A stretch of DNA of 64,000 bases from positions 31,603 to 95,602 of the forward strand of contig CAZVED010000005.1 in assembly GCA_964626205.1 (NCBI GenBank). The letters are read 5' to 3'. Position numbers and translations under genes: made by a program. The notes beneath the pieces were generated by a model that saw only the letters and a list, made by a program, of their open reading frames with translations, was not told where the DNA came from and did no database searches. Origin of the DNA: an uncultured Gammaproteobacteria bacterium (lineage in GTDB: Bacteria; Patescibacteriota; Patescibacteriia; SG8-24). Every line of letters starts with the position of its first letter. Position 1 is the first letter of the stretch. Below, piece after piece: positions 55,518 to 63,625 of this stretch.

Positions 55518-55594
55518 TGGTGCACCCGGCAGGAGTCGAACCTGCGACCTTCAGCTCCGCAAGCTGACGCTCTATCCAGCTGAGCTACGAGTGC
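55518..55594 (-). tRNA. tRNA-Arg (anticodon GCG as read)
   Basis: The minus strand gcactcgtagctcagctggatagagcgtcagcttgcggagctgaaggtcgcaggttcgactcctgccgggtgcacca folds as a canonical cloverleaf. Anticodon loop tt-GCG-ga; encoded CCA. Confidence 0.8.
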
Positions 55595-55603
55595 GTATGC
55601 GGT

Positions 55604-56113
55604 TTACAGTTTGAGGACGCGACCAATGGCGTCGAGCAGGGGCTCTTCGTCTTTGGTGAGATCTTCGACGACGAACGCGGCCAAGACTTCGCGGACTTCG
55701 TTGGGGTTTTGATCGCCCAAGCCGATGATGACACGCGGCTTCCACGGCTCCTTGAAGTCGAGGTACAGCTGCTTCACGACCGGTGGTTCGTAGACGAACC
55801 AGAAGTGGCTGATTTCCTGGTAGCCGTAGAACGCACCTCCGACCTGGATGCCCCGGTCATCGATGGTTACGACGGATTCCGTGACAGCCTGGATCGACGA
55901 GAGGTAGATCACGAGGCCGAACATGATGATAATCAGCGCAAAGAGGAAGTTACCAGAAGCCAGCGCATAAAGCAAGAGTCCAAGGCCCACGGCCCCCATG
56001 GCGAAATACCACCGCCCGCCCCGGTCATACCGGTCGGCCTCGGAGTACTCCCAGCTCACAATCATGTCGCGTTCGTCTTCCATAGGTGATTCCTCCCCGC
56101 TACTATAGCGCAT
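55604..56113 (-). CDS. hypothetical membrane protein (169 aa)
   Basis: Two adjacent TM helices (WYFAMGAVGLGLLLYALASGNFLFALIIIMFGLVIYL). No family recognised. Confidence 0.4.
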   Translation of the reverse strand: MRYSSGEESPMEDERDMIVSWEYSEADRYDRGGRWYFAMGAVGLGLLLYALASGNFLFALIIIMFGLVIYLSSIQAVTESVVTIDDRGIQVGGAFYGYQEISHFWFVYEPPVVKQLYLDFKEPWKPRVIIGLGDQNPNEVREVLAAFVVEDLTKDEEPLLDAIGRVLKL

Positions 56114-56356
56114 TTAAGGCCAGGGGGCCAATAGGGGTATTCACAAACCCGGGGGTTTCCTATACTGTAACGGGGTTCGGAAATGAACCGACCGGATGGC
56201 CATAGGGAGCCGTCGGAGTATGAGAAGGCCTTTCAGACGGGATGCGATTCGGGATGCTGGCGTGGACCGCAGCCGTGAGGCCTACTCCCTGTAGGCCGGA
56301 ACGGGGCGGGCCGCGTCAGTGCCCGAAGCGCGCCCGGCTGTAAGGCCGAACCGTAA

Positions 56357-56445
56357 GGAGGGCTGCGCCGAATGGTAAGGCACCAGTTTGCTAAACTGTG
56401 ACGCCGCAAGGTGTCTTCTGGGTTCGATCCCCAGGCCCTCCGCCA
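56357..56445 (+). tRNA. tRNA-Ser (anticodon GCU), class II with long variable arm
   Basis: ggagggc acceptor, anticodon loop tt-GCT-aa, variable arm tgacgccgcaaggtgtcttc, T-arm ctgggttcgatccccag, 3-prime gccctcc-g-cca. The spurious antisense ORF translates to the classic GIEPRR artefact. Confidence 0.8.
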
Positions 56446-56528
56446 TGAATCGCTCACCCCGCAAGGGGTGGGCGCTTTCATATGAGGTCATGGCCCGAAG
56501 GGGTCGGGAATGGTATTTTAATGGACAT

Positions 56529-56616
56529 GGAGGGGTGGCCGAGCGGTTGAAGGCACCGGTCTTGAAAACCGGCAGGGCGCAAGTCCTCGTGAGTTCGAAT
56601 CTCACCCCCTCCGCCA
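56529..56616 (+). tRNA. tRNA-Ser (anticodon UGA), class II
   Basis: ggaggggtggccgagcggttgaaggcaccggtcttgaaaaccggcagggcgcaagtcctcgtgagttcgaatctcaccccctccgcca. The antisense ORF gives the GVRFELT artefact. Confidence 0.88.
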
Positions 56617-56656: not shown

Positions 56657-56684
56657 GTAGGTGCTTGTCGCAACAACAAAACGC
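56657..56684 (+). terminator. rho-independent terminator after the tRNA-Ser pair
   Basis: aaaacgccccggaaggggcgtttt followed by gttg. Confidence 0.7.
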
Positions 56685-56739
56685 CCCGGAAGGGGCGTTT
56701 TGTTGTAAGATTAAAGCACTATTCTGAAGCAAGTCATCT

Positions 56740-57826: not shown

Positions 57827-58147
57827 ATGCCTCAGCAGCCCCTCTTCAGCCAGCGCGTCGTGAAGCTCGCGCTCTCCATCCCACCCGGTAAGGTGACGAC
57901 GTATGGCCGCCTCGCGCGCGCCGCAGGCGGCGGCGCCATGGCCTCGCAAAGCATCACCGCAATTCTCTGGAAAGCGGAGCAGCGCGGCGTCACCGGCATC
58001 CCCTACCACCGCATCGTCTACGCCGACGGCAGGGTCTGGATCGACGCCACGCATCGCAAACAACGCCTCGCGCTCTACAAAAAGGAAGGAATCGCCTTGG
58101 ACAAGGACGACTACGTCATCGATTTCAAAAAGAAGTTGGTGGGGTAA
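57827..58147 (+). CDS. alkyltransferase-like (ATL) protein: MGMT/Ogt DNA-binding domain with Tyr in place of the catalytic Cys
   Basis: VVKLALSIPPGKVTTYGRLA...GIPYHRIVYADGRV aligns to the Ogt C-terminal domain, where the motif is PCHRV. Here it reads PYHRIV. Confidence 0.65.
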   Translation: MPQQPLFSQRVVKLALSIPPGKVTTYGRLARAAGGGAMASQSITAILWKAEQRGVTGIPYHRIVYADGRVWIDATHRKQRLALYKKEGIALDKDDYVIDFKKKLVG

Positions 58148-58835: not shown

Positions 58836-58862
58836 AAAAACCGGCATCTGCCGGTCTTTTTT
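58836..58862. terminator. bidirectional terminator (hypothetical gene + / comF -)
   Basis: aaaaaccggcatctgccggtctttttt. Confidence 0.75.
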
Positions 58863-59674
58863 CATCCCCGCAACACCGTCACGGCCGTCACACGAAGCGC
58901 TCCGGCATCCCGGAGCGCTTTTGCGCATGCCGCGAGCGTCGACCCTGTCGTCATCACATCGTCCACGATGACGCACGACTCCGGCGCCGCGCGCAGGGAC
59001 GTGACCGCGCCACGGACGTTCTCCGACCGCAACACGCTCTCCCCCATCTCTACCTGCGTCTTGCTCGAGTACGCACGCCGGAGCAATGTGCGGTCCACAG
59101 CATGGCCGGTCGCGGCAGCAAGCGTCTCCGCGAACACGTCCGCCTGATTGAACCCACGCATCCGAAGCCTCAATGGATGCAACGGTGACGGCACAATGAC
59201 CGCCTCTGTGTCTCCCAACGTGCGAAGCTCCTCACCACGCCCGGCAAGGAACGCGGCGAACAGGTCCGCAAGCGCCGTCCCAGCCTCCTCGATGCCCTCA
59301 TACTTGTAGGCCTGTAGCAGTTCGCGTAGCAGCGGGTCGTTGTAAGGAGCCATGCAAAGGACACCATCTAGGCCTTCCACGTGAACAAGAAATGGTGTCG
59401 CGTTGCGTTCCAGGCCAGGCCCCTCCGGGGAGGCTAAAGTCGGAGCCGCCTCCCCGGAGGGGCCTGGCCTGGGGCGTAAGGCACCGTCAAGAGATAACGA
59501 AAAGCCTCCGATGGTGGAGGCTTTTTTTATCTCGAGACACGCAGCGCAGAGCAGAGATCCTTCCATGCGGCACCCCAGGCAAAAATGCGGAAATAGCACC
59601 GGACCGGCGGATGCAACCGCCGTCCGTACGATCCTTATTGCCGTGGTTGCCACTCCGCGGAATCCGCCATCCAT
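58862..59674 (-). CDS. comF: ComF family phosphoribosyltransferase-domain protein carrying an in-frame palindromic insertion
   Basis: N-terminal LFPHFCLGCRMEGSLLCAACLEI (ComF zinc finger), LDGVLCMAPYNDPLLRELLQAYKYEG, PRT motif VIVDDVMTTGSTL. The start codon is uncertain and overlaps the upstream gene. Confidence 0.8.
   Translation of the reverse strand: MDGGFRGVATTAIRIVRTAVASAGPVLFPHFCLGCRMEGSLLCAACLEIKKASTIGGFSLSLDGALRPRPGPSGEAAPTLASPEGPGLERNATPFLVHVEGLDGVLCMAPYNDPLLRELLQAYKYEGIEEAGTALADLFAAFLAGRGEELRTLGDTEAVIVPSPLHPLRLRMRGFNQADVFAETLAAATGHAVDRTLLRRAYSSKTQVEMGESVLRSENVRGAVTSLRAAPESCVIVDDVMTTGSTLAACAKALRDAGALRVTAVTVLRG
59410..59472. repeat. perfect inverted repeat (24-bp arms, 15-nt spacer) embedded in frame inside comF
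   Basis: ccaggccaggcccctccggggagg-ctaaagtcggagccg-cctccccggaggggcctggcctgg. Translated as ALRPRPGPSGEAAPTLASPEGPGLER in ComF. Confidence 0.8.
59498..59528. other. terminator-like hairpin (A-run, GCCTCC-gatggt-GGAGGC, T7) located inside the comF reading frame
   Basis: aaaagcctccgatggtggaggcttttttt on the plus strand. The minus strand also has an A7-hairpin-TTTTCGTT. It encodes KKASTIGGFS of ComF. Confidence 0.6.
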
Positions 59675-60267
59675 TCGCCGTTCGTCTTGATGAGTTCGAG
59701 GATGATGTCCTGATAATACACCTCGGCGGCCGTGGTGCCGGACGCATCCTGGCGGCGCTGGGTGCTGACGCGCACCGTAGCAGTCCCCGCATCTTCGTCA
59801 AATGTCACGATGGTCGGAGCAAGCGCGCGGGTCGTGACACCGTAATGGACTGTAGTGTCGCCGGAGGCGGCCCGTGCGTCCGCCACATACTGGTCGGCCC
59901 ACGCCTGCATGGACGGGGTCATGACCGTCCGTAAATCCGTGATGTTCACGAAGTCCGTCTGGTTGGAGAAGCTGCCGAACCGTTCGGTGAATGCCGCCGC
60001 GAAACGCAGGATGGCTGATGTGTCGTCCGGCGGCGCCGTCGGCGCCGTTTCGGTCGGGGCTGGCTGCACCGGAGCCGGAGTCGCTCCGCGATTAGGATCG
60101 TTGGCTTCCGGAAGCCCTGTCGTCGACTGCCCGTTCCCCTGCGCCGTGACATCCACGACCGGAACCGTCGGAGCAGGACGCTGCATCAGGAAGAACAGGG
60201 CGATAGCCAACAAGAGGAGGATGAGCGCGATGGCGATACCAAGAAGGACTTTCTGTCGTCGTGTCAT
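59635..60267 (-). CDS. membrane-anchored protein downstream of VirB4 (possible VirB8/TcpC-like periplasmic domain)
   Basis: N-terminal TM helix (LLGIAIALILLLLAIALFFL), Pro/Thr/Ala-rich linker, C-terminal domain of about 120 aa. Position in the T4SS-like operon. Confidence 0.4.
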   Translation of the reverse strand: MTRRQKVLLGIAIALILLLLAIALFFLMQRPAPTVPVVDVTAQGNGQSTTGLPEANDPNRGATPAPVQPAPTETAPTAPPDDTSAILRFAAAFTERFGSFSNQTDFVNITDLRTVMTPSMQAWADQYVADARAASGDTTVHYGVTTRALAPTIVTFDEDAGTATVRVSTQRRQDASGTTAAEVYYQDIILELIKTNGEWMADSAEWQPRQ

Positions 60268-60276
60268 AGGCGTCGG

Positions 60277-62226
60277 TTATGCGGTAGGTGGTGTTCCGGC
60301 TGGGGCAGCTCCTTTAGCAGCGGCGTTCGCAGCATCCTGCCGTGCGATCTCGGCTTCGTACTCCTTCTTTGCCTCCGCGATCTCGATGAGCTGTTGCGGG
60401 TTCGTGGTGACGATCTGGTCTTCGGTGTAGCTCGCCACGACCTTGATGGCCGCGTGCTTATTGCCAGCGAAGAAGATACCTTCGCCGACACCACCCTCGA
60501 GGAGAAGGAACTTCTCGCCCTCCGTGAGAAGGAACGTCTTGGCGACGTTGTCGATGGCCGCCGGCGACTGCTTGAGCAGCATCTGCATGGCGGAGTTCGT
60601 CACGATGGCCTGGCCGTAGGGCGAACGCAGGAAGTCGTTCACGTCCTGGGTGATCGTCGTGACACCGAGGAAGTACTTACGGCAGCGCTTCACGAGCGCG
60701 AAGATGAACTTCGCCGAGTCCTCGTGCTGCATGAGCCACCATGCCTCGTCGATGACGAGAATGCGCTTCTTCTTCTCCGAACGGACGACGTTCCAGATGT
60801 AGTTGACGACCGCGTAGATGGCGAGTGGGCGAAGTTCGTCTTCCAAGTCACGGACGCAGAACGTGACGAGCAGGTTATTCATCTGCACGGTCGTCGGCGA
60901 GTTGAAGAGACCGGCGAACGTACCTTCCGTGAACTTCTTCAGCTTGATGACGATGTCCTTGGTGCCTTCCATGCCATCGAGCACTTCCACGAAGTCCTGC
61001 ATGACCGGCGCTTCGACCTGCGAAAGATCGGCATCGGCAGTGATGTCCTTCTTGGCGTAGGTTTCAAGCAGCGCACGGTCGAGGACGGAGTCTTCCTGCG
61101 GCGTGACGGTGCCGAGCATGATGCGGAGCAAACCCTTGGTCGTGATGACCGCCGAGCGGATGATGTCTTCGGTGGATACCTCCTCGCCCACCGCGCGCGG
61201 CAGGTCGAACGGGTTGATCTTAGCGTCCGACGCGAGCGAGAGGTTCACGTACGTGCCGCCGACGGCATCCGAGAGGTGCTTGTATTCCTGTTCCGGGTCG
61301 ATGACGATAACGTCGGTCCCCAGCATGAGCGACCGCAAAATCTCGAGCTTCACAGTGTACGACTTACCCGCACCGGAGGTCGCGAACACGATGTAGTTCG
61401 CGTTCTGCATGGAGAAGCGGTCGAAGAGGATGAGGCTGTTGTTGTGGCGGTTGATGCCGAACAAGATGCCGTTCTCGGACGTAAGGTCCGCGGAGATGAA
61501 CGGGAACGACGACGCAATCGGGCTCGAGTTCATGTTGAACGTCGTCATGAGCTCGTCGTTACCGATCGGTAGCGTGGAATTGAAGCCCTGCTCCGCCTGA
61601 TAGAATACGCGCTTCGTGTAGATGAGCTTTGACCCGAAGACGGACTCCACTTCCTCGCTGAACTTATCGAGGTCTTCCTTGGTCTTTGCGTACATCGTGA
61701 CGTACAACGCAAACTGGAAAAAGTGCTCCGTCCCCTGGGAGAGCGTGTCACGCAGCCATTCGATGTCCTGGAGCGCCTGTTCACGGATGGGGTCGCGTGG
61801 CTTTCCGGACTCCGAATCCGAAACGATCTGCGCTTCGAGCGTACCGACCTTCTTCTGCAACTGCTTCAGGATGACATTAGCCTTGACCGGGTAGAAGAAC
61901 ATCGCCACGTCGATGGTCTTGTTCATGTTGATGACCGGCGTGAACCAGCCGAGCGACAGGTGGCGCGGATAGGACACGACGAACACCGTCCGAACGAAGC
62001 TCTCACCGAGCTGCAAGAACGTCGGCTGGATCTGCATCCCTGCGGGCGAGATGAGATCCTTGATGGAGACGACGCCTTTGCGATAGATGCGCTCCTCTTC
62101 GAGCAACGTCTTCTGTTCCGCGAGCTTTGTCTGCTCTTCTGCCTGCTTCTTCCCCTTCCCCGAAAGGTCCTTCGGGTCTTTGGGGACGCTGACCTGTGTG
62201 CCGAGTTGTTGCGGTGTGAACGCCAT
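60277..62226 (-). CDS. virB4: VirB4/TraC/CagE-family T4SS ATPase, C-terminal 650-aa portion (linker + ATPase)
   Basis: LISPAGMQIQP...VRTVFVVSYPRHLSLGWF, Walker A FATSGAGKSYT, Walker B RILVIDEAWWLM. Start MAFTPQQ at 62226; the 703-aa track ORF is over-extended. Confidence 0.88.
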   Translation of the reverse strand: MAFTPQQLGTQVSVPKDPKDLSGKGKKQAEEQTKLAEQKTLLEEERIYRKGVVSIKDLISPAGMQIQPTFLQLGESFVRTVFVVSYPRHLSLGWFTPVINMNKTIDVAMFFYPVKANVILKQLQKKVGTLEAQIVSDSESGKPRDPIREQALQDIEWLRDTLSQGTEHFFQFALYVTMYAKTKEDLDKFSEEVESVFGSKLIYTKRVFYQAEQGFNSTLPIGNDELMTTFNMNSSPIASSFPFISADLTSENGILFGINRHNNSLILFDRFSMQNANYIVFATSGAGKSYTVKLEILRSLMLGTDVIVIDPEQEYKHLSDAVGGTYVNLSLASDAKINPFDLPRAVGEEVSTEDIIRSAVITTKGLLRIMLGTVTPQEDSVLDRALLETYAKKDITADADLSQVEAPVMQDFVEVLDGMEGTKDIVIKLKKFTEGTFAGLFNSPTTVQMNNLLVTFCVRDLEDELRPLAIYAVVNYIWNVVRSEKKKRILVIDEAWWLMQHEDSAKFIFALVKRCRKYFLGVTTITQDVNDFLRSPYGQAIVTNSAMQMLLKQSPAAIDNVAKTFLLTEGEKFLLLEGGVGEGIFFAGNKHAAIKVVASYTEDQIVTTNPQQLIEIAEAKKEYEAEIARQDAANAAAKGAAPAGTPPTA

Positions 62227-62227
62227 A

Positions 62228-62923
62228 CTAGATGCTGTTCTGGTTATCCGACACGCGCAAGTCGCCGACGTCGCGCATCTTCTGCGAGTCGAGGAGTTCC
62301 GGGTTGTACGCGCGATAGTAGAGCTCGATGAGGCTCTGCGTGTCGAGCATGACAGACTTGAGTCCCATGGACTGAAGATTGCCAGCAATGCCGTTCACAC
62401 GCGACAGCAGCTGTTCCTTGCGGTCACGGAAACGCTTCTCCGCGAGCTTCACGATAGCGGCCGGCTGGAACGCCTCGCTCAGACGCGCCCAGAAACCCTT
62501 GGACTTGTCCGACAGCGGATTATACGGCACGACGACGAAGAACTGCTTCTGCATGATCTGTCCGATATCAACGAGTTCCGAGACGAACCCACGATAATCC
62601 GCGATCTGCAGCTTGAGCAGTTCGTTCTTCTGGTTCTTCTGCGCCTCAGCAAGCCGCTCCATATACGCCTCGATGTTGAGACGGCGTGACTGAATGACGA
62701 TCTGCAACGGGAACTCGAGCGAGTTCATGAAGCTGATGTACTGCTGGATAATGGCATTCTGCTCGTCTTCGGACTTGAGCGCAAAATTGATGGATGCCAC
62801 GAGCAAAACCGCGCGAAGCGTGCCGTCTTTCATGACGACGACGTCTTCGCGGACTTCCGCGATGTCGAGATACCGTTGTGTCGCAGGTCCCGGTTTCGGT
62901 CCCGCAAGTTTCTTCGACTGCAT
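62228..62923 (-). CDS. VirB4 N-terminal domain encoded as a separate 231-aa ORF (split gene or frameshift)
   Basis: DIAEVREDVVVMKDGTLRAVLLVASINFALKSEDEQNAIIQQYISFMNSLEFPLQIVIQS matches the N-terminus of Gram-positive VirB4 homologs (PrgJ/TraE type). Stop TAG, 1 nt, then the ATG of the ATPase ORF in the +1 frame. Confidence 0.7.
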   Translation of the reverse strand: MQSKKLAGPKPGPATQRYLDIAEVREDVVVMKDGTLRAVLLVASINFALKSEDEQNAIIQQYISFMNSLEFPLQIVIQSRRLNIEAYMERLAEAQKNQKNELLKLQIADYRGFVSELVDIGQIMQKQFFVVVPYNPLSDKSKGFWARLSEAFQPAAIVKLAEKRFRDRKEQLLSRVNGIAGNLQSMGLKSVMLDTQSLIELYYRAYNPELLDSQKMRDVGDLRVSDNQNSI

Positions 62924-62925
62924 GG

Positions 62926-63357
62926 CTATGCTTCAGGGTTATAGACGCCGCCCGTGTTGACGATCATCGTCAGCTCGGAGAGCTTGGAGGCTTCCACGCG
63001 CGCCTTGAGCTTTCGCGTGGGTGGGGGCGGAGGCGGGGGCTCATTGAGAATCGCCTTGAGCTCCGCGTCGGTAAGGTCCTTGTCCCAAACGCGGCGTGGC
63101 GGCTTCCTCCATGTCTGGATGAGGTTCAGCAGGAAAAAATGGAACGGCTGACCGTTGATCTTCGTGAACGCGAGAATACCGCCGAGCGCGAGCTCGATGA
63201 CGCCGACCGTGATAAACAGCGCGAAATCGAAAAGCTGAAACGCGATAAACATGAACATCGCCGTGACGAGCAGAATGACGAACTGCCGCGTCGTGATAGG
63301 ACCGATGATCTTATCTTCGACGTCGATGAATTGCGGAACAACGTATTTCTGCGCCAT
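62926..63357 (-). CDS. PrgI family (VirB3-like) small membrane protein
   Basis: MAQKYVVPQFIDVEDKIIGPITTRQFVILLV matches the PrgI-family N-terminal signature. Two TM helices, poly-Pro C-terminal part. Its stop is 2 nt before the VirB4 N-domain start. Confidence 0.7.
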   Translation of the reverse strand: MAQKYVVPQFIDVEDKIIGPITTRQFVILLVTAMFMFIAFQLFDFALFITVGVIELALGGILAFTKINGQPFHFFLLNLIQTWRKPPRRVWDKDLTDAELKAILNEPPPPPPPTRKLKARVEASKLSELTMIVNTGGVYNPEA

Positions 63358-63371
63358 ACATCAGTGTTTCC

Positions 63372-63410
63372 AGTATAGCACAGAAATAAGCTCAGCATGC
63401 TGAGCTTATT
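63372..63410 (-). promoter_or_regulatory. TATACT -10-like hexamer plus a perfect 26-bp palindrome AATAAGCTCAGCATGCTGAGCTTATT (operator-like) upstream of the T4SS-like operon
   Basis: The minus strand reads ...aataagctcagcatgctgagcttatt-tctgtgc-TATACT-ggaaacactg-ATG (PrgI-like gene). The palindrome spans 63385-63410. Confidence 0.5.
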
Positions 63411-63484
63411 GCCGTTCAAATCCACCCATCCCAGAAAGGCGGAAAATCTTATCCACAACCGTCCAGGAAACCACGGAGCGAGCT

Positions 63485-63578
63485 GTTTTTTGCGAGGCCT
63501 TTAGGCCGAAGCAATCCCGTGCGATTTCAAGACGGGATTGCTTCGGGGGTCGAGTACGACCCCACTCGCAATGACAAA
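63485..63578. repeat. Structured element E3 of the TGTCATTGCGAG family: a four-way junction closed by TTGCGAG/CTCGCAA and ending in CTCGCAATGACA
   Basis: ttgcgag-[gcctttaggc]-c-[gaagcaatcccgt gcgatttcaag acgggattgcttc]-g-[ggggtcg agta cgacccc]-a-ctcgcaatgaca. Confidence 0.6.
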
Positions 63579-63625
63579 GTCAGAACAGTCGCGCCTACCC
63601 TCCCCACGATGACACGATAGTGCAA

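What the first reader, a model, noticed from the sequence alone, without database searches (positions are those of the whole stretch)
59410..59528. comF reading frame runs in frame through a perfect 24-bp-arm palindrome and a terminator-like hairpin
ComF retains its N-terminal CxxC...CxxC zinc finger and its PRT domain. The linker, where homologs usually carry a second Cys pair, is instead encoded by gcctccgatggtggaggc+T7 (a textbook intrinsic terminator shape on either strand) and by a perfect inverted repeat ccaggccaggcccctccggggagg / cctccccggaggggcctggcctgg. These translate to KKASTIGGFS and ALRPRPGPSGEAAPTLASPEGPGLER, and LDG occurs on both sides (SLSLDGA ... EGLDGV). This looks like in-frame insertion of a palindromic mobile or repeat element into a tolerant linker. 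Alternatively the DNA hairpins serve a function such as attenuation or stabilisation of competence-gene transcripts.
Basis: partly seen in the sequence, partly recalled or inferred. Interest (0 to 1): 0.65.

Follow-up and report, generated by a model that had tools for sequence, protein, structure and literature searches.

The report
Terminator hairpin and palindrome inside comF
Inside the DNA-uptake gene comF of an uncultured bacterium, one hairpin is a conserved terminator-like signal written into the coding sequence, and the other is a single-copy 25-bp palindrome in a degenerate, dispensable zinc-ribbon loop, with no sign that it is a mobile element.

Summary
comF (58862-59674, minus strand, 270 aa) reads in frame through a terminator-shaped hairpin (59500-59525) and a perfect palindrome (25-nt arms 59410-59434 and 59448-59472, 13-nt loop).

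The two hairpins are different things.

Hairpin 1 is not an insertion. It encodes the family motif A-x3-G-x-F. A stem plus U-tract sits at the same codons in 7 of 10 orthologs, and an eighth has a G.U-rich version. The stems covary, and codon choice favours the structure far more than the amino-acid sequence requires. It equals comF's own 3' terminator in strength. I read it as a leaky ORF-internal terminator or attenuator ending the upstream T4SS-like operon. No expression data test this.

Hairpin 2 lies in the remnant of ComF's second zinc ribbon. All four Cys are lost, the segment is 19 aa longer than in the family, and AlphaFold confidence is low. Its 5' arm, loop and first 6 nt of the 3' arm recur in relative L013, and the 5' arm recurs in L012. 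The nearest full ortholog, L014, has deleted the segment. No other copy was found in any collection searched. A mobile element is therefore unsupported. A local inverted duplication by template switching is the best guess for its origin. Its function is unknown.

The parts
58862..59674 (-). comF (ComFC-family) coding sequence, 270 aa. It runs continuously through both hairpins.
   Evidence: ORF list. PF00156 hit. ComF-family hits. 69% identity over 236 aa to the L014 ortholog.
59537..59581 (-). Retained first zinc finger, codons 32-46 (C32, C35, C43, C46)
   Evidence: These columns are invariant in alignments A1 and A3. AlphaFold pLDDT is 93-95. It is equivalent to the essential 4-Cys finger of H. 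pylori ComFC.
59500..59525 (-). Hairpin 1 core: AAAAGCCUCC-ACCAUC-GGAGGCUUUU. It encodes K50-F58, the family motif A-x3-G-x-F.
   Evidence: -15.6 kcal/mol. A hairpin at the same codons in orthologs. Covariation. Synonymous-recoding null.
59486..59538 (-). Extended quasi-palindrome around hairpin 1. The outer stem is GAGAUAA/UUAUCUC. The 3' side covers the U-rich tail UUUUCGUUAUCU and the degenerate knuckle 3 (LSLD in place of CPxC, 59486-59497).
   Evidence: I3. Fold. Codon alignment.
59448..59472 (-). Palindrome 5' arm in mRNA sense (P68-A76)
   Evidence: Homologous DNA in L013 and L012.
59435..59447 (-). Palindrome loop GGCUCCGACUUUA (A76-L80)
   Evidence: 12 of 13 nt are identical in L013. 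No other copy in the window.
59410..59434 (-). Palindrome 3' arm in mRNA sense (A81-E89, includes ASPEG)
   Evidence: The first 6 nt are visible in L013 before the contig ends.
59400..59482 (-). Whole hairpin 2 including the imperfect outer extension: 35-nt arms, 89% complementary, -68.5 kcal/mol
59372..59500 (-). Degenerate second zinc ribbon, codons 59-101. All four Cys are lost, it is 19 aa longer than in the family, and it is a low-confidence loop.
   Evidence: Alignments. AlphaFold. The segment is deleted in L014.
59635..60267 (-). Upstream 210-aa gene, whose stop lies 40 nt inside comF and 110 nt upstream of hairpin 1. It is the last gene of the PrgI-like / TraC-like / VirB4-like cluster before comF.
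58838..58862 (-). Ordinary terminator at the 3' end of comF, used as the yardstick for hairpin 1 (-14.7 kcal/mol, same A-tract/stem/U-tract build)

Best explanation
The finding contains two unrelated hairpins.

(1) Hairpin 1 (59500-59525 plus a U-rich tail) is an evolutionarily conserved, intrinsic-terminator-like element embedded in the comF reading frame, 110 nt after the stop codon of the upstream gene. It is written into the codons of the family motif [NK]-A-x3-G-[VIF]-F, which links the two zinc ribbons. It most likely works as a leaky terminator or attenuator. It would end most transcripts of the upstream T4SS-like operon and let only a fraction continue into comF. Read-through would plausibly be favoured when a ribosome translating comF follows the polymerase closely and stops the stem from forming. 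What is shown: conservation of position, stem covariation, a U-tract, and codon bias toward the structure. What is inferred: that it terminates transcription, and that read-through is coupled to translation.

(2) Hairpin 2 (59400-59482) is a clade-specific, single-copy palindrome inside the remnant of ComF's second zinc ribbon. This accessory sub-domain has lost all four cysteines here and is predicted to be a disordered loop. The palindrome most likely arose locally, as a reverse-complement duplication by replication template switching within a GC-rich coding stretch. It persisted because the loop tolerates it. Its arms have stayed perfectly paired either through repeated arm homogenisation or through selection on the RNA or DNA hairpin. 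It can be lost without destroying the gene, as in L014. What is shown: uniqueness, presence in relatives, and its location in a degenerate ribbon. What is inferred: the mechanism of origin and how the pairing is maintained.
For: Hairpin 1:
- With a strict definition (stem >= 6 bp, >= 4 G-C pairs, loop 3-8, >= 5 U in 8) there are 14 distinct sense-strand hits in 34 kb of orthologous loci. Seven of them fall at this one site, in 7 of 10 orthologs. L001 has a sub-threshold G.U version.
- The stems differ completely between orthologs. The window has GCCUCC/GGAGGC, L014 has ACCCCGCCCUU/AAGGGCGGGGU, L007 has AGCACCCCG/CGGGGUGUU, and L011 has AAACGCCUC/GAGGCGUUU.
- 80.4% of cells are paired against 69.0 +/- 2.6 in shuffles (0 of 500 reach the observed value). 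There are 11 double-change cells against 3.6 (0 of 500). Slid controls give 45-58%.
- Given each ortholog's own amino-acid sequence and codon usage, only 2-19% of synonymous recodings give a terminator-like hairpin.
- T at third codon positions after the stem is 23 of 48 against 7.5 expected.
- Its energy and build equal comF's own 3' terminator: -15.6 against -14.7 kcal/mol.
- ORF-internal 3' ends from premature termination are documented in E. coli (PMC7815308).

Hairpin 2:
- Only the two arms match each other in the window.
- GTDB, JGI and IMG/VR scans give only single-arm chance hits or none. Plasmids give nothing and phages give only a marginal 36-nt hit. There is no Rfam family.
- Family members have CPxCGxxSPxGxxC-x4-C where the window has LSLDGAL...SPEGPGLERNAT plus 19 extra residues.
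- pLDDT is 44-58 over residues 61-100.
- L013 carries the homologous 5' arm, loop and start of the 3' arm. Its peptide GPSGKAAPTLAS matches 11 of 12 residues. One pair has switched G-C to C-G and one is an A.C mismatch. L012 carries the 5'-arm homolog. Both contigs end at the palindrome.
- L014 is 69% identical in ComF and is closest to L013 in the neighbouring protein. It lacks the whole segment.
- The corresponding region in non-clade orthologs shows no unusual structure, with z between -1.1 and +0.3.
- Template switching is a documented way to create and re-perfect hairpins, including in coding DNA (PMC8794818 and PMC8604942).
Against: - There are no expression or 3'-end data, so termination is not shown.
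- The window's U-tract is interrupted (UUUUCGUU), which predicts at best partial termination.
- Part of hairpin 1's pairing follows from complementary codons: Asn/Lys-Ala against Gly-Val.
- MFE-based recoding tests were only suggestive. Z-scores ranged from -3.9 to +2.0, and site rank was not significant when combined.
- Two orthologs, L006 and L009, lack hairpin 1.
- The ten sequences are related, and the tested structure came from one of them.
- For hairpin 2, no ancestor or intermediate was recovered.
- About 20 nt of the extra segment (the loop and flanks) are not explained by a simple reverse-complement copy.
- The 3' arms of L012 and L013 are unseen, because the contigs end there.
- The branching order that makes L014 a secondary deletion rests on 119 aa of one protein plus 58 aa of ComF, and the two give partly conflicting signals.
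- Only 64 kb of the source genome could be searched for further copies.
Confidence: 0.55

Rival explanations
1. Both hairpins are functionless by-products. Hairpin 1 simply reflects a conserved peptide whose codons happen to be self-complementary, with Phe/Val/Leu codons giving the T-run. Hairpin 2 is a neutral template-switch scar in a decaying loop.
For: The motif [NK]-A...G-[VI]-F pairs AAC/GTT and GCC/GGC by the nature of the code. MFE z-scores against synonymous recodings are mixed, and the site rank combined across orthologs is not significant. L006 and L009 do without the hairpin. L014 does without the palindrome.
Against: Only 2-19% of synonymous recodings of each ortholog's own peptide give a terminator-like hairpin, yet 7 of 10 have one. 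The stems differ even where the amino acids differ, for example TPPFAKGG in L014 against KKASTIGG in the window. Double-sided changes exceed all 500 shuffles. U-rich and rare codons such as TTA, TTT and GTT are used in GC-rich genes. The window's palindrome arms are 25 of 25 paired, although the 5' arm differs from L013's at about 4 of 25 positions.
Confidence: 0.25
2. The palindrome is an in-frame insertion of a miniature mobile palindromic element (RPE-, REP- or MITE-like).
For: It is a compact 63-83-nt palindrome in a coding region with the frame preserved. A TTA occurs on both sides of a possible 45-nt unit, which could be read as a target duplication.
Against: No second copy was found with up to 3 mismatches or by sensitive blastn in 64 kb. 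None was found in 185,579 GTDB species genomes, JGI metagenomes or IMG/VR beyond single-arm chance hits, and none in plasmids or phages. Where seen in relatives, it is at the same site only. A 3-nt flank match is trivial by chance.
Confidence: 0.1
3. The comF ORF is not one functional gene. The N-terminal zinc finger is a relic, hairpin 1 is the true end of the upstream transcription unit, and the PRT domain is made from an internal start at M108.
For: A terminator-shaped hairpin sits between the two parts. Some library proteins of 162-164 aa begin at the Met equivalent to M108.
Against: The start codon, its 40-nt overlap with the upstream gene and the MxxGF N-terminus are conserved in all orthologous loci. 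The finger residues are invariant. The frame is maintained across the linker in the window and in L014 despite a 33-residue length difference. No Shine-Dalgarno-like sequence precedes M108. The short proteins have no genomic context and may be truncated gene calls.
Confidence: 0.07
4. The palindrome is an assembly or sequencing artefact of the metagenome-assembled contig.
For: The source is a single MAG contig, and hairpins are hard to sequence. Two short-read contigs of relatives break exactly there.
Against: The 5' arm, the loop and the start of the 3' arm are found independently in a different sample, L013 from SRR22388331. The 5' arm is found in a third sample, L012 from SRR22000202. Both carry their own substitutions. 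The flanks continue in the same orientation and frame on both sides, which foldback chimeras do not produce.
Confidence: 0.03

Closest known systems
ORF-internal intrinsic terminators and premature termination sites (for example E. coli 3'-end mapping, PMC7815308; Borrelia, PMC10319736)
   Same: A G+C-rich stem followed by a U-rich tract inside a reading frame, downstream of an operon's last upstream stop. It is comparable in energy to a bona fide terminator in the same genome.
   Different: Here it is inferred only from sequence conservation. It is conserved across orthologs 40-77% identical and is superimposed on a conserved peptide motif between two zinc ribbons. No 3' ends have been measured.
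Template-switch (quasi-palindrome) mutations that create or perfect hairpins (PMC8794818), including in coding DNA (PMC8604942)
   Same: A perfect reverse-complement repeat of adjacent sequence, single-copy, within a gene. The arms have stayed homogenised while the sequence diverged from relatives.
   Different: At 25-bp arms it is much longer than typical events. The ancestral state and the four switch points could not be reconstructed. About 20 nt of the gain are not accounted for.
Rickettsia palindromic elements (RPE) and other in-frame MITE-like insertions
   Same: A palindromic DNA segment carried in frame within a protein-coding gene, in a surface or loop region tolerated by the protein.
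   Different: RPEs are multi-copy families of 100-150 bp scattered over many genes. This element is 63-83 bp and has no other copy in any collection searched.
ComFC of Helicobacter pylori and the ComF family with a double zinc ribbon (PF18912) plus a PRT domain (PMC9005727)
   Same: An N-terminal 4-Cys finger and a C-terminal PRPP-binding phosphoribosyltransferase-like domain, with all invariant family residues present.
   Different: The second ribbon, present in most close relatives, has lost all Cys and carries the palindrome-encoded 19 extra residues. H. pylori ComFC has no second ribbon at all.

Membership tests
ComF/ComFC family | N-terminal 4-Cys zinc finger (CxxC-x7/8-CxxC) | tested here: met
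   C32, C35, C43 and C46 are invariant in A1 and A3. pLDDT is 93-95. This matches the C3/C6/C15/C18 finger of H. pylori ComFC.
ComF/ComFC family | C-terminal phosphoribosyltransferase-type domain with a PRPP loop (VDDVxTTGxT) | tested here: met
   PF00156, E = 3e-7, 30.3 bits against a cutoff of 26.3. D238, D239, V240, T242, G244 and T246 are invariant. PDB profile hits fall on PRT enzymes only.
ComF/ComFC family | Second zinc ribbon (double zinc ribbon, PF18912). Present in many members, not all. | tested here: not met
   No PF18912 hit. CPxC...C...C is replaced by LSLD...L...T. The feature is also absent in H. pylori ComFC, P0101, P0110 and L014, so it does not define the family.
ComF/ComFC family | Role in uptake and handling of transforming DNA | not testable with these tools
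   Context only: the gene follows a PrgI-like / TraC-like / VirB4-like cluster.
Intrinsic (Rho-independent) terminator | G+C-rich stem, short loop, U-rich tract directly 3' of the stem on the transcribed strand | tested here: met
   10 pairs (5 G-C), 6-nt loop, tail UUUUCGUUAU. -15.6 kcal/mol, against -14.7 for comF's 3' terminator.
Intrinsic (Rho-independent) terminator | Conserved presence at the same position in orthologs, beyond what the protein sequence requires | tested here: met
   7 of 10 orthologs. Covariation. The recoding null gives 2-19% per ortholog.
Intrinsic (Rho-independent) terminator | RNA 3' ends or termination at the U-tract | not testable with these tools
   No transcriptome data. 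In vitro or Term-seq assays are needed.
Mobile palindromic repeat (RPE / REP / MITE-like) | Multiple related copies in the genome or in related genomes | tested here: not met
   Limited to 64 kb of the source genome plus the public collections.
Mobile palindromic repeat (RPE / REP / MITE-like) | Target-site duplication or an empty site in close relatives at the insertion point | tested here: inconclusive
   Only a 3-nt TTA on both sides. L014 lacks the element but through a larger deletion of the whole ribbon remnant.
Template-switch-derived inverted repeat | New sequence is the exact reverse complement of adjacent sequence | tested here: met
   25 of 25 complementary arms 13 nt apart.
Template-switch-derived inverted repeat | Outgroups lack the repeat, and the event can be placed on a branch with its switch points | tested here: inconclusive
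   Non-clade orthologs have an ordinary ribbon coding sequence without unusual structure. No close ancestor-like allele was recovered, and the 3' arms of L012 and L013 are missing.
Any Rfam RNA family | Score at or above the gathering threshold | tested here: not met
   Only tRNAs pass in the window. The region gives only far-sub-threshold matches to eukaryotic miRNA-precursor hairpins.

The most novel reading that the evidence does not exclude
Hairpin 1 is a translation-sensitive attenuator that ends the T4SS-like operon inside comF. Over evolutionary time it has dictated the amino-acid motif joining ComF's zinc ribbons, so that stretch is truly dual-coded. In the window's clade, a 25-bp perfect stem placed just downstream is kept paired by selection. 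It acts as an RNA processing site or roadblock, for example an RNase III target, that further lowers ComF dosage. Together they would form a two-hairpin regulatory module hidden in a protein linker of a competence gene.
Probability: 0.15. Interest if true: 0.6.

Novelty: new member of a known kind. Interest (0 to 1): 0.4.

Why it matters
If hairpin 1 really terminates transcription, it is a clean natural example of a regulatory RNA signal and a protein motif sharing the same nucleotides. It has been conserved across a poorly known lineage in which genes overlap and leave no intergenic room for terminators. It also warns annotators that the conserved A-x3-G-V-F motif in these ComF proteins may reflect RNA constraints rather than protein constraints.

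The palindrome is a well-documented case of a long perfect hairpin tolerated in frame within a decaying zinc ribbon. It is useful as an example of how local inverted duplication, rather than a mobile element, can add peptide sequence.

Neither point changes how competence or ComF is understood.

Tried and rejected
1. Frameshift-plus-compensation idea. DNA similarity to L001 (TTTTCGTT...) and MAFFT's 1-nt offset suggested that the knuckle-3 codons are read out of frame. I rejected this once closer relatives showed the same in-frame replacements, C to L and C to D in the window and L013, and identical TTTTCGTTATC in frame in L012.

2. '3' arm is ancestral because ASPEG matches the family SPxG.' The spacing fits, but [ST]-P-x-G in a P/G-rich 43-aa stretch has roughly a 0.1 chance, and R67-P68 aligns equally well. 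I kept this only as a weak hint.

3. 'Recent singleton insertion.' This was my working view. It was overturned by L012 and L013.

4. MFE z-scores against synonymous recoding in sliding windows were suggestive, but not significant when combined. I replaced them with a direct terminator-occurrence null.

5. Search for a nearby template of the 13-nt loop: none found.

6. Restriction-site-like content of the arms (CCWGG, GGCC, CCGG): not unusual for this genome.

7. The A7 run directly before hairpin 1 resembles a -1 frameshift or slippage site. The -1 frame stops after 13 codons. The run is absent in L012, L013 and L014, so I treated it as chance.

8. Rfam and PDB by sequence gave nothing specific.

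9. DNA for the informative relatives P0097 and P0303 could not be fetched because the sample files were too large.

More distant ComF hits are labelled Patescibacteria.
Full report
**Observation**

The minus-strand ORF 58862-59674 encodes a 270-aa ComF-family protein. It reads through two hairpins.
- The first is a terminator-shaped hairpin, AAAAGCCTCC-ACCATC-GGAGGCTTTT, at 59500-59525. An imperfect outer stem extends it to 59486-59538.
- The second is a palindrome whose perfect arms are 25 nt (59410-59434 and 59448-59472) around a 13-nt loop. It extends imperfectly to 35-nt arms at 59400-59482.

The arm has no other match in the window even with 3 mismatches, against 0 expected in shuffles. 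It is the longest inverted repeat in the 64 kb. As RNA, the 83-nt element folds at -68.5 kcal/mol (z = -8.7) and the 181-nt region at -109.8 kcal/mol (z = -11.1).

**Protein context**

A first search found only one distant ortholog, P0002 at 40% identity, in a syntenic PrgI / TraC-like / VirB4-like / 218-aa / ComF locus. An exhaustive HMMER search then revealed a family: P0097 at 52-57% identity and about 25 others at 36-50%.

The family consensus after the first zinc finger is x5-A-x3-G-[VI]-F-x-CPxCGxxSPxGxxC-x4-C-x4-LDG. In the window:
- K50-F58 (KKASTIGGF), the peptide encoded by hairpin 1, matches the conserved A-x3-G-x-F motif. G56 is invariant. Hairpin 1 is therefore not an insertion.
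- The CPxC...C...C of the second ribbon is replaced by LSLD...L...T.
- The segment is 19 residues longer than in the family.

AlphaFold gives pLDDT of 93-95 for the first finger and above 90 for the PRT domain, but only 44-58 for residues 61-100. H. pylori ComFC has a single essential 4-Cys finger and no second ribbon (PMC9005727). Some family members (P0101, P0110, P0248) lack the second ribbon by deletion. The palindrome therefore lies in a dispensable, already degenerate sub-domain.

**Is the palindrome a repeat element?**

A 20-mer from the arm gave the following results:
- Three single-arm hits in unrelated GC-rich genomes among 185,579 GTDB species genomes.
- One single-arm hit in the JGI metagenomes, with no palindrome at that place.
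- No hits in IMG/VR.

Sensitive blastn of the whole 151-nt region found nothing else in the window, nothing in plasmids, and only a marginal 36-nt hit in one Streptomyces phage genome. Rfam has no matching family. There is thus no evidence for a multi-copy or mobile family. The caveat is that only 64 kb of the source genome was available.

**Closer relatives change the picture**

Searching with the upstream 210-aa neighbour found relatives at 55-77% identity.
- L013 (70%) carries, at the same place in comF...CACTCCGGCCAGGGCCCCTCCGGCAAGGCGGCCCCGACTTTAGCCTCG, and then the contig ends. This is homologous to the window's 5' arm, loop (12 of 13 nt) and first 6 nt of the 3' arm. It encodes GPSGKAAPTLAS, against GPSGEAAPTLAS in the window. 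Of the six visible pairs, five pair. One has changed on both sides relative to the window (G-C to C-G) and one is A.C.
- L012 (77%) carries a homolog of the 5' arm and ends inside it.
- Window and L013 share the same in-frame replacements of the knuckle-3 cysteines, C to L and C to D. The ribbon had therefore already decayed in their common ancestor.
- L014 is the closest near-full-length ortholog: 69% ComF identity, and 85% identity to L013 in the neighbour protein. It has only 10 residues between G-G-V and LDG, where the window has 43.

The most parsimonious reading is that the palindrome-bearing segment is ancestral to this small clade and was deleted in L014. This rests on short sequences with partly conflicting identities. 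The window's 5' arm differs from L013's at about 4 of 25 positions, yet the window's arms are 25 of 25 complementary. The arms must therefore have evolved in concert, by homogenisation or by selection, in at least one lineage.

In non-clade orthologs the corresponding coding region shows no unusual folding, with z between -1.1 and +0.3. Replication template switching is a documented way to create perfect reverse-complement repeats in one step and to re-perfect them, including in coding DNA (PMC8794818 and PMC8604942). I take it as the most likely origin. I could not reconstruct the event, and about 20 nt of the gain (loop and flanks) are not explained by a simple copy.

**Hairpin 1 is the more significant result**

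In the codon alignment, orthologs have their own hairpin at the same codons, with different sequences. Each is followed by a U-rich run.

| Ortholog | Stem-loop-stem | Tail |
|---|---|---|
| L014 | ACCCCGCCCUU-CGCG-AAGGGCGGGGU | UUUGCUU |
| L013 | AAGCCCC-GCUGA-GGGGCUU | UUUGCUU |
| L012 | AAGCCCC-CACAA-GGGGUUU | UUCGUU |
| L007 | AGCACCCCG-UUG-CGGGGUGUU | UUUUUGUGU |
| L011 | AAACGCCUC-GAUGA-GAGGCGUUU | UCUGUU |
| L010 | ACGCCC-GGAUGAA-GGGCGU | UUUCUCAU |

The supporting tests are as follows.
- With a strict terminator definition there are 14 distinct sense-strand hits in 34 kb of these loci. Seven sit at this one site, in 7 of 10 orthologs. L001 has a G.U-rich sub-threshold version.
- On the alignment, 80.4% of cells pair against 69.0 +/- 2.6 in shuffles (0 of 500). 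Double-sided changes number 11 against 3.6 (0 of 500). Slid controls give 45-58%.
- The obvious confound is that Asn/Lys-Ala and Gly-Val codons are complementary and Phe supplies U's. I addressed this by recoding each ortholog's own peptide with its own codon usage. Only 2-19% of recodings yield a terminator-like hairpin.
- T is strongly enriched at third codon positions after the stem, 23 of 48 against 7.5 expected. This test is partly circular.
- MFE-based versions of the recoding test were only suggestive.
- Hairpin 1 matches the genuine terminator after comF in build and energy, -15.6 against -14.7 kcal/mol.

The upstream gene's stop lies 40 nt inside comF in every locus, so there is no intergenic space. 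L009, which lacks hairpin 1, has a terminator-like hairpin about 10 nt after that stop. L007 has one there too, in addition to hairpin 1. I therefore interpret hairpin 1 as a leaky ORF-internal terminator or attenuator for the upstream T4SS-like operon that also sets comF transcript levels. Coupling to comF translation is my inference. ORF-internal termination is a known phenomenon (PMC7815308), so this is a new member of a known kind.

**Verdict**

The 'in-frame mobile palindromic element' interpretation is not supported.
- Hairpin 1 is old, conserved and probably functional.
- Hairpin 2 is clade-specific, single-copy, dispensable, and of unknown function if it has any.

No expression data exist. 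The key experiments are 3'-end mapping and recovery of the full L012 and L013 alleles.

Noticed in passing
window 63380-63415: Near-perfect palindrome TAAGCTCAGCA|TGCTGAGCTTA directly upstream of a -10-like TATACT and of the start of the PrgI-like gene (62926-63357, minus strand). It could be an operator for the T4SS-like operon or the terminator of the gene upstream.
   Followed up: no
window 63506-63575: Two further hairpins lie in the intergenic gap 63358-63625: a 15-bp perfect inverted repeat with an 11-nt loop (63506-63546), and GGGGTCG-TAC-TCGACCCC just upstream of it.
   Followed up: no
window 58862-63357 (minus strand); L001, L007: The gene order PrgI-like / TraC-like / VirB4-like ATPase / 210-aa protein / ComF is conserved. 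The comF start overlaps the preceding gene by 37-49 nt in every orthologous locus.
   Followed up: partly
L009 1260-1279; L007 6050-6070: A separate terminator-like hairpin lies about 10 nt after the upstream gene's stop, inside the first 25 codons of comF. L009 lacks hairpin 1, so the position of the embedded terminator seems to move between lineages.
   Followed up: partly
L012 end (1290); L013 end (1377): Both short-read (Logan) contigs of the closest relatives stop inside the palindrome. This suggests the hairpin breaks assembly or coverage in those samples.
   Followed up: no
window 59519-59525 (minus strand, AAAAAAA): An A7 run lies immediately 5' of the hairpin-1 stem and resembles a -1 frameshift or transcriptional slippage site. 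The -1 frame would stop after 13 codons at 59487-59489. The run is absent in L012, L013 and L014, so it is probably chance.
   Followed up: partly
window 59482-59491 and 59362-59371: Direct repeats CTTGACGGTG and CTAGATGGTG (the two 'LDG' codon groups, 8 of 10 identical) flank the ribbon remnant and the palindrome. Recombination between them would give an L014-like short linker.
   Followed up: no
window 57827-58147 (+): A 106-aa protein consisting only of the DNA-binding domain of O6-methylguanine-DNA methyltransferase (PF01035, E = 1.2e-11). This makes it a possible alkyltransferase-like protein.
   Followed up: no
window, whole: GATC is under-represented, 241 observed against 364 expected from a maximal-order Markov estimate.
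   Followed up: no
proteins P0121, P0124 (library only): ComF relatives of 162-164 aa begin at the Met equivalent to window M108. They are either truncated gene calls or finger-less ComF variants. No genomic context is available.
   Followed up: no
window 55518-56616: A tRNA cluster: Arg-GCG on the minus strand, and Ser-GCT and Ser-TGA on the plus strand. Strong hairpins sit between and after them (56451-56474, 56673-56706).
   Followed up: no
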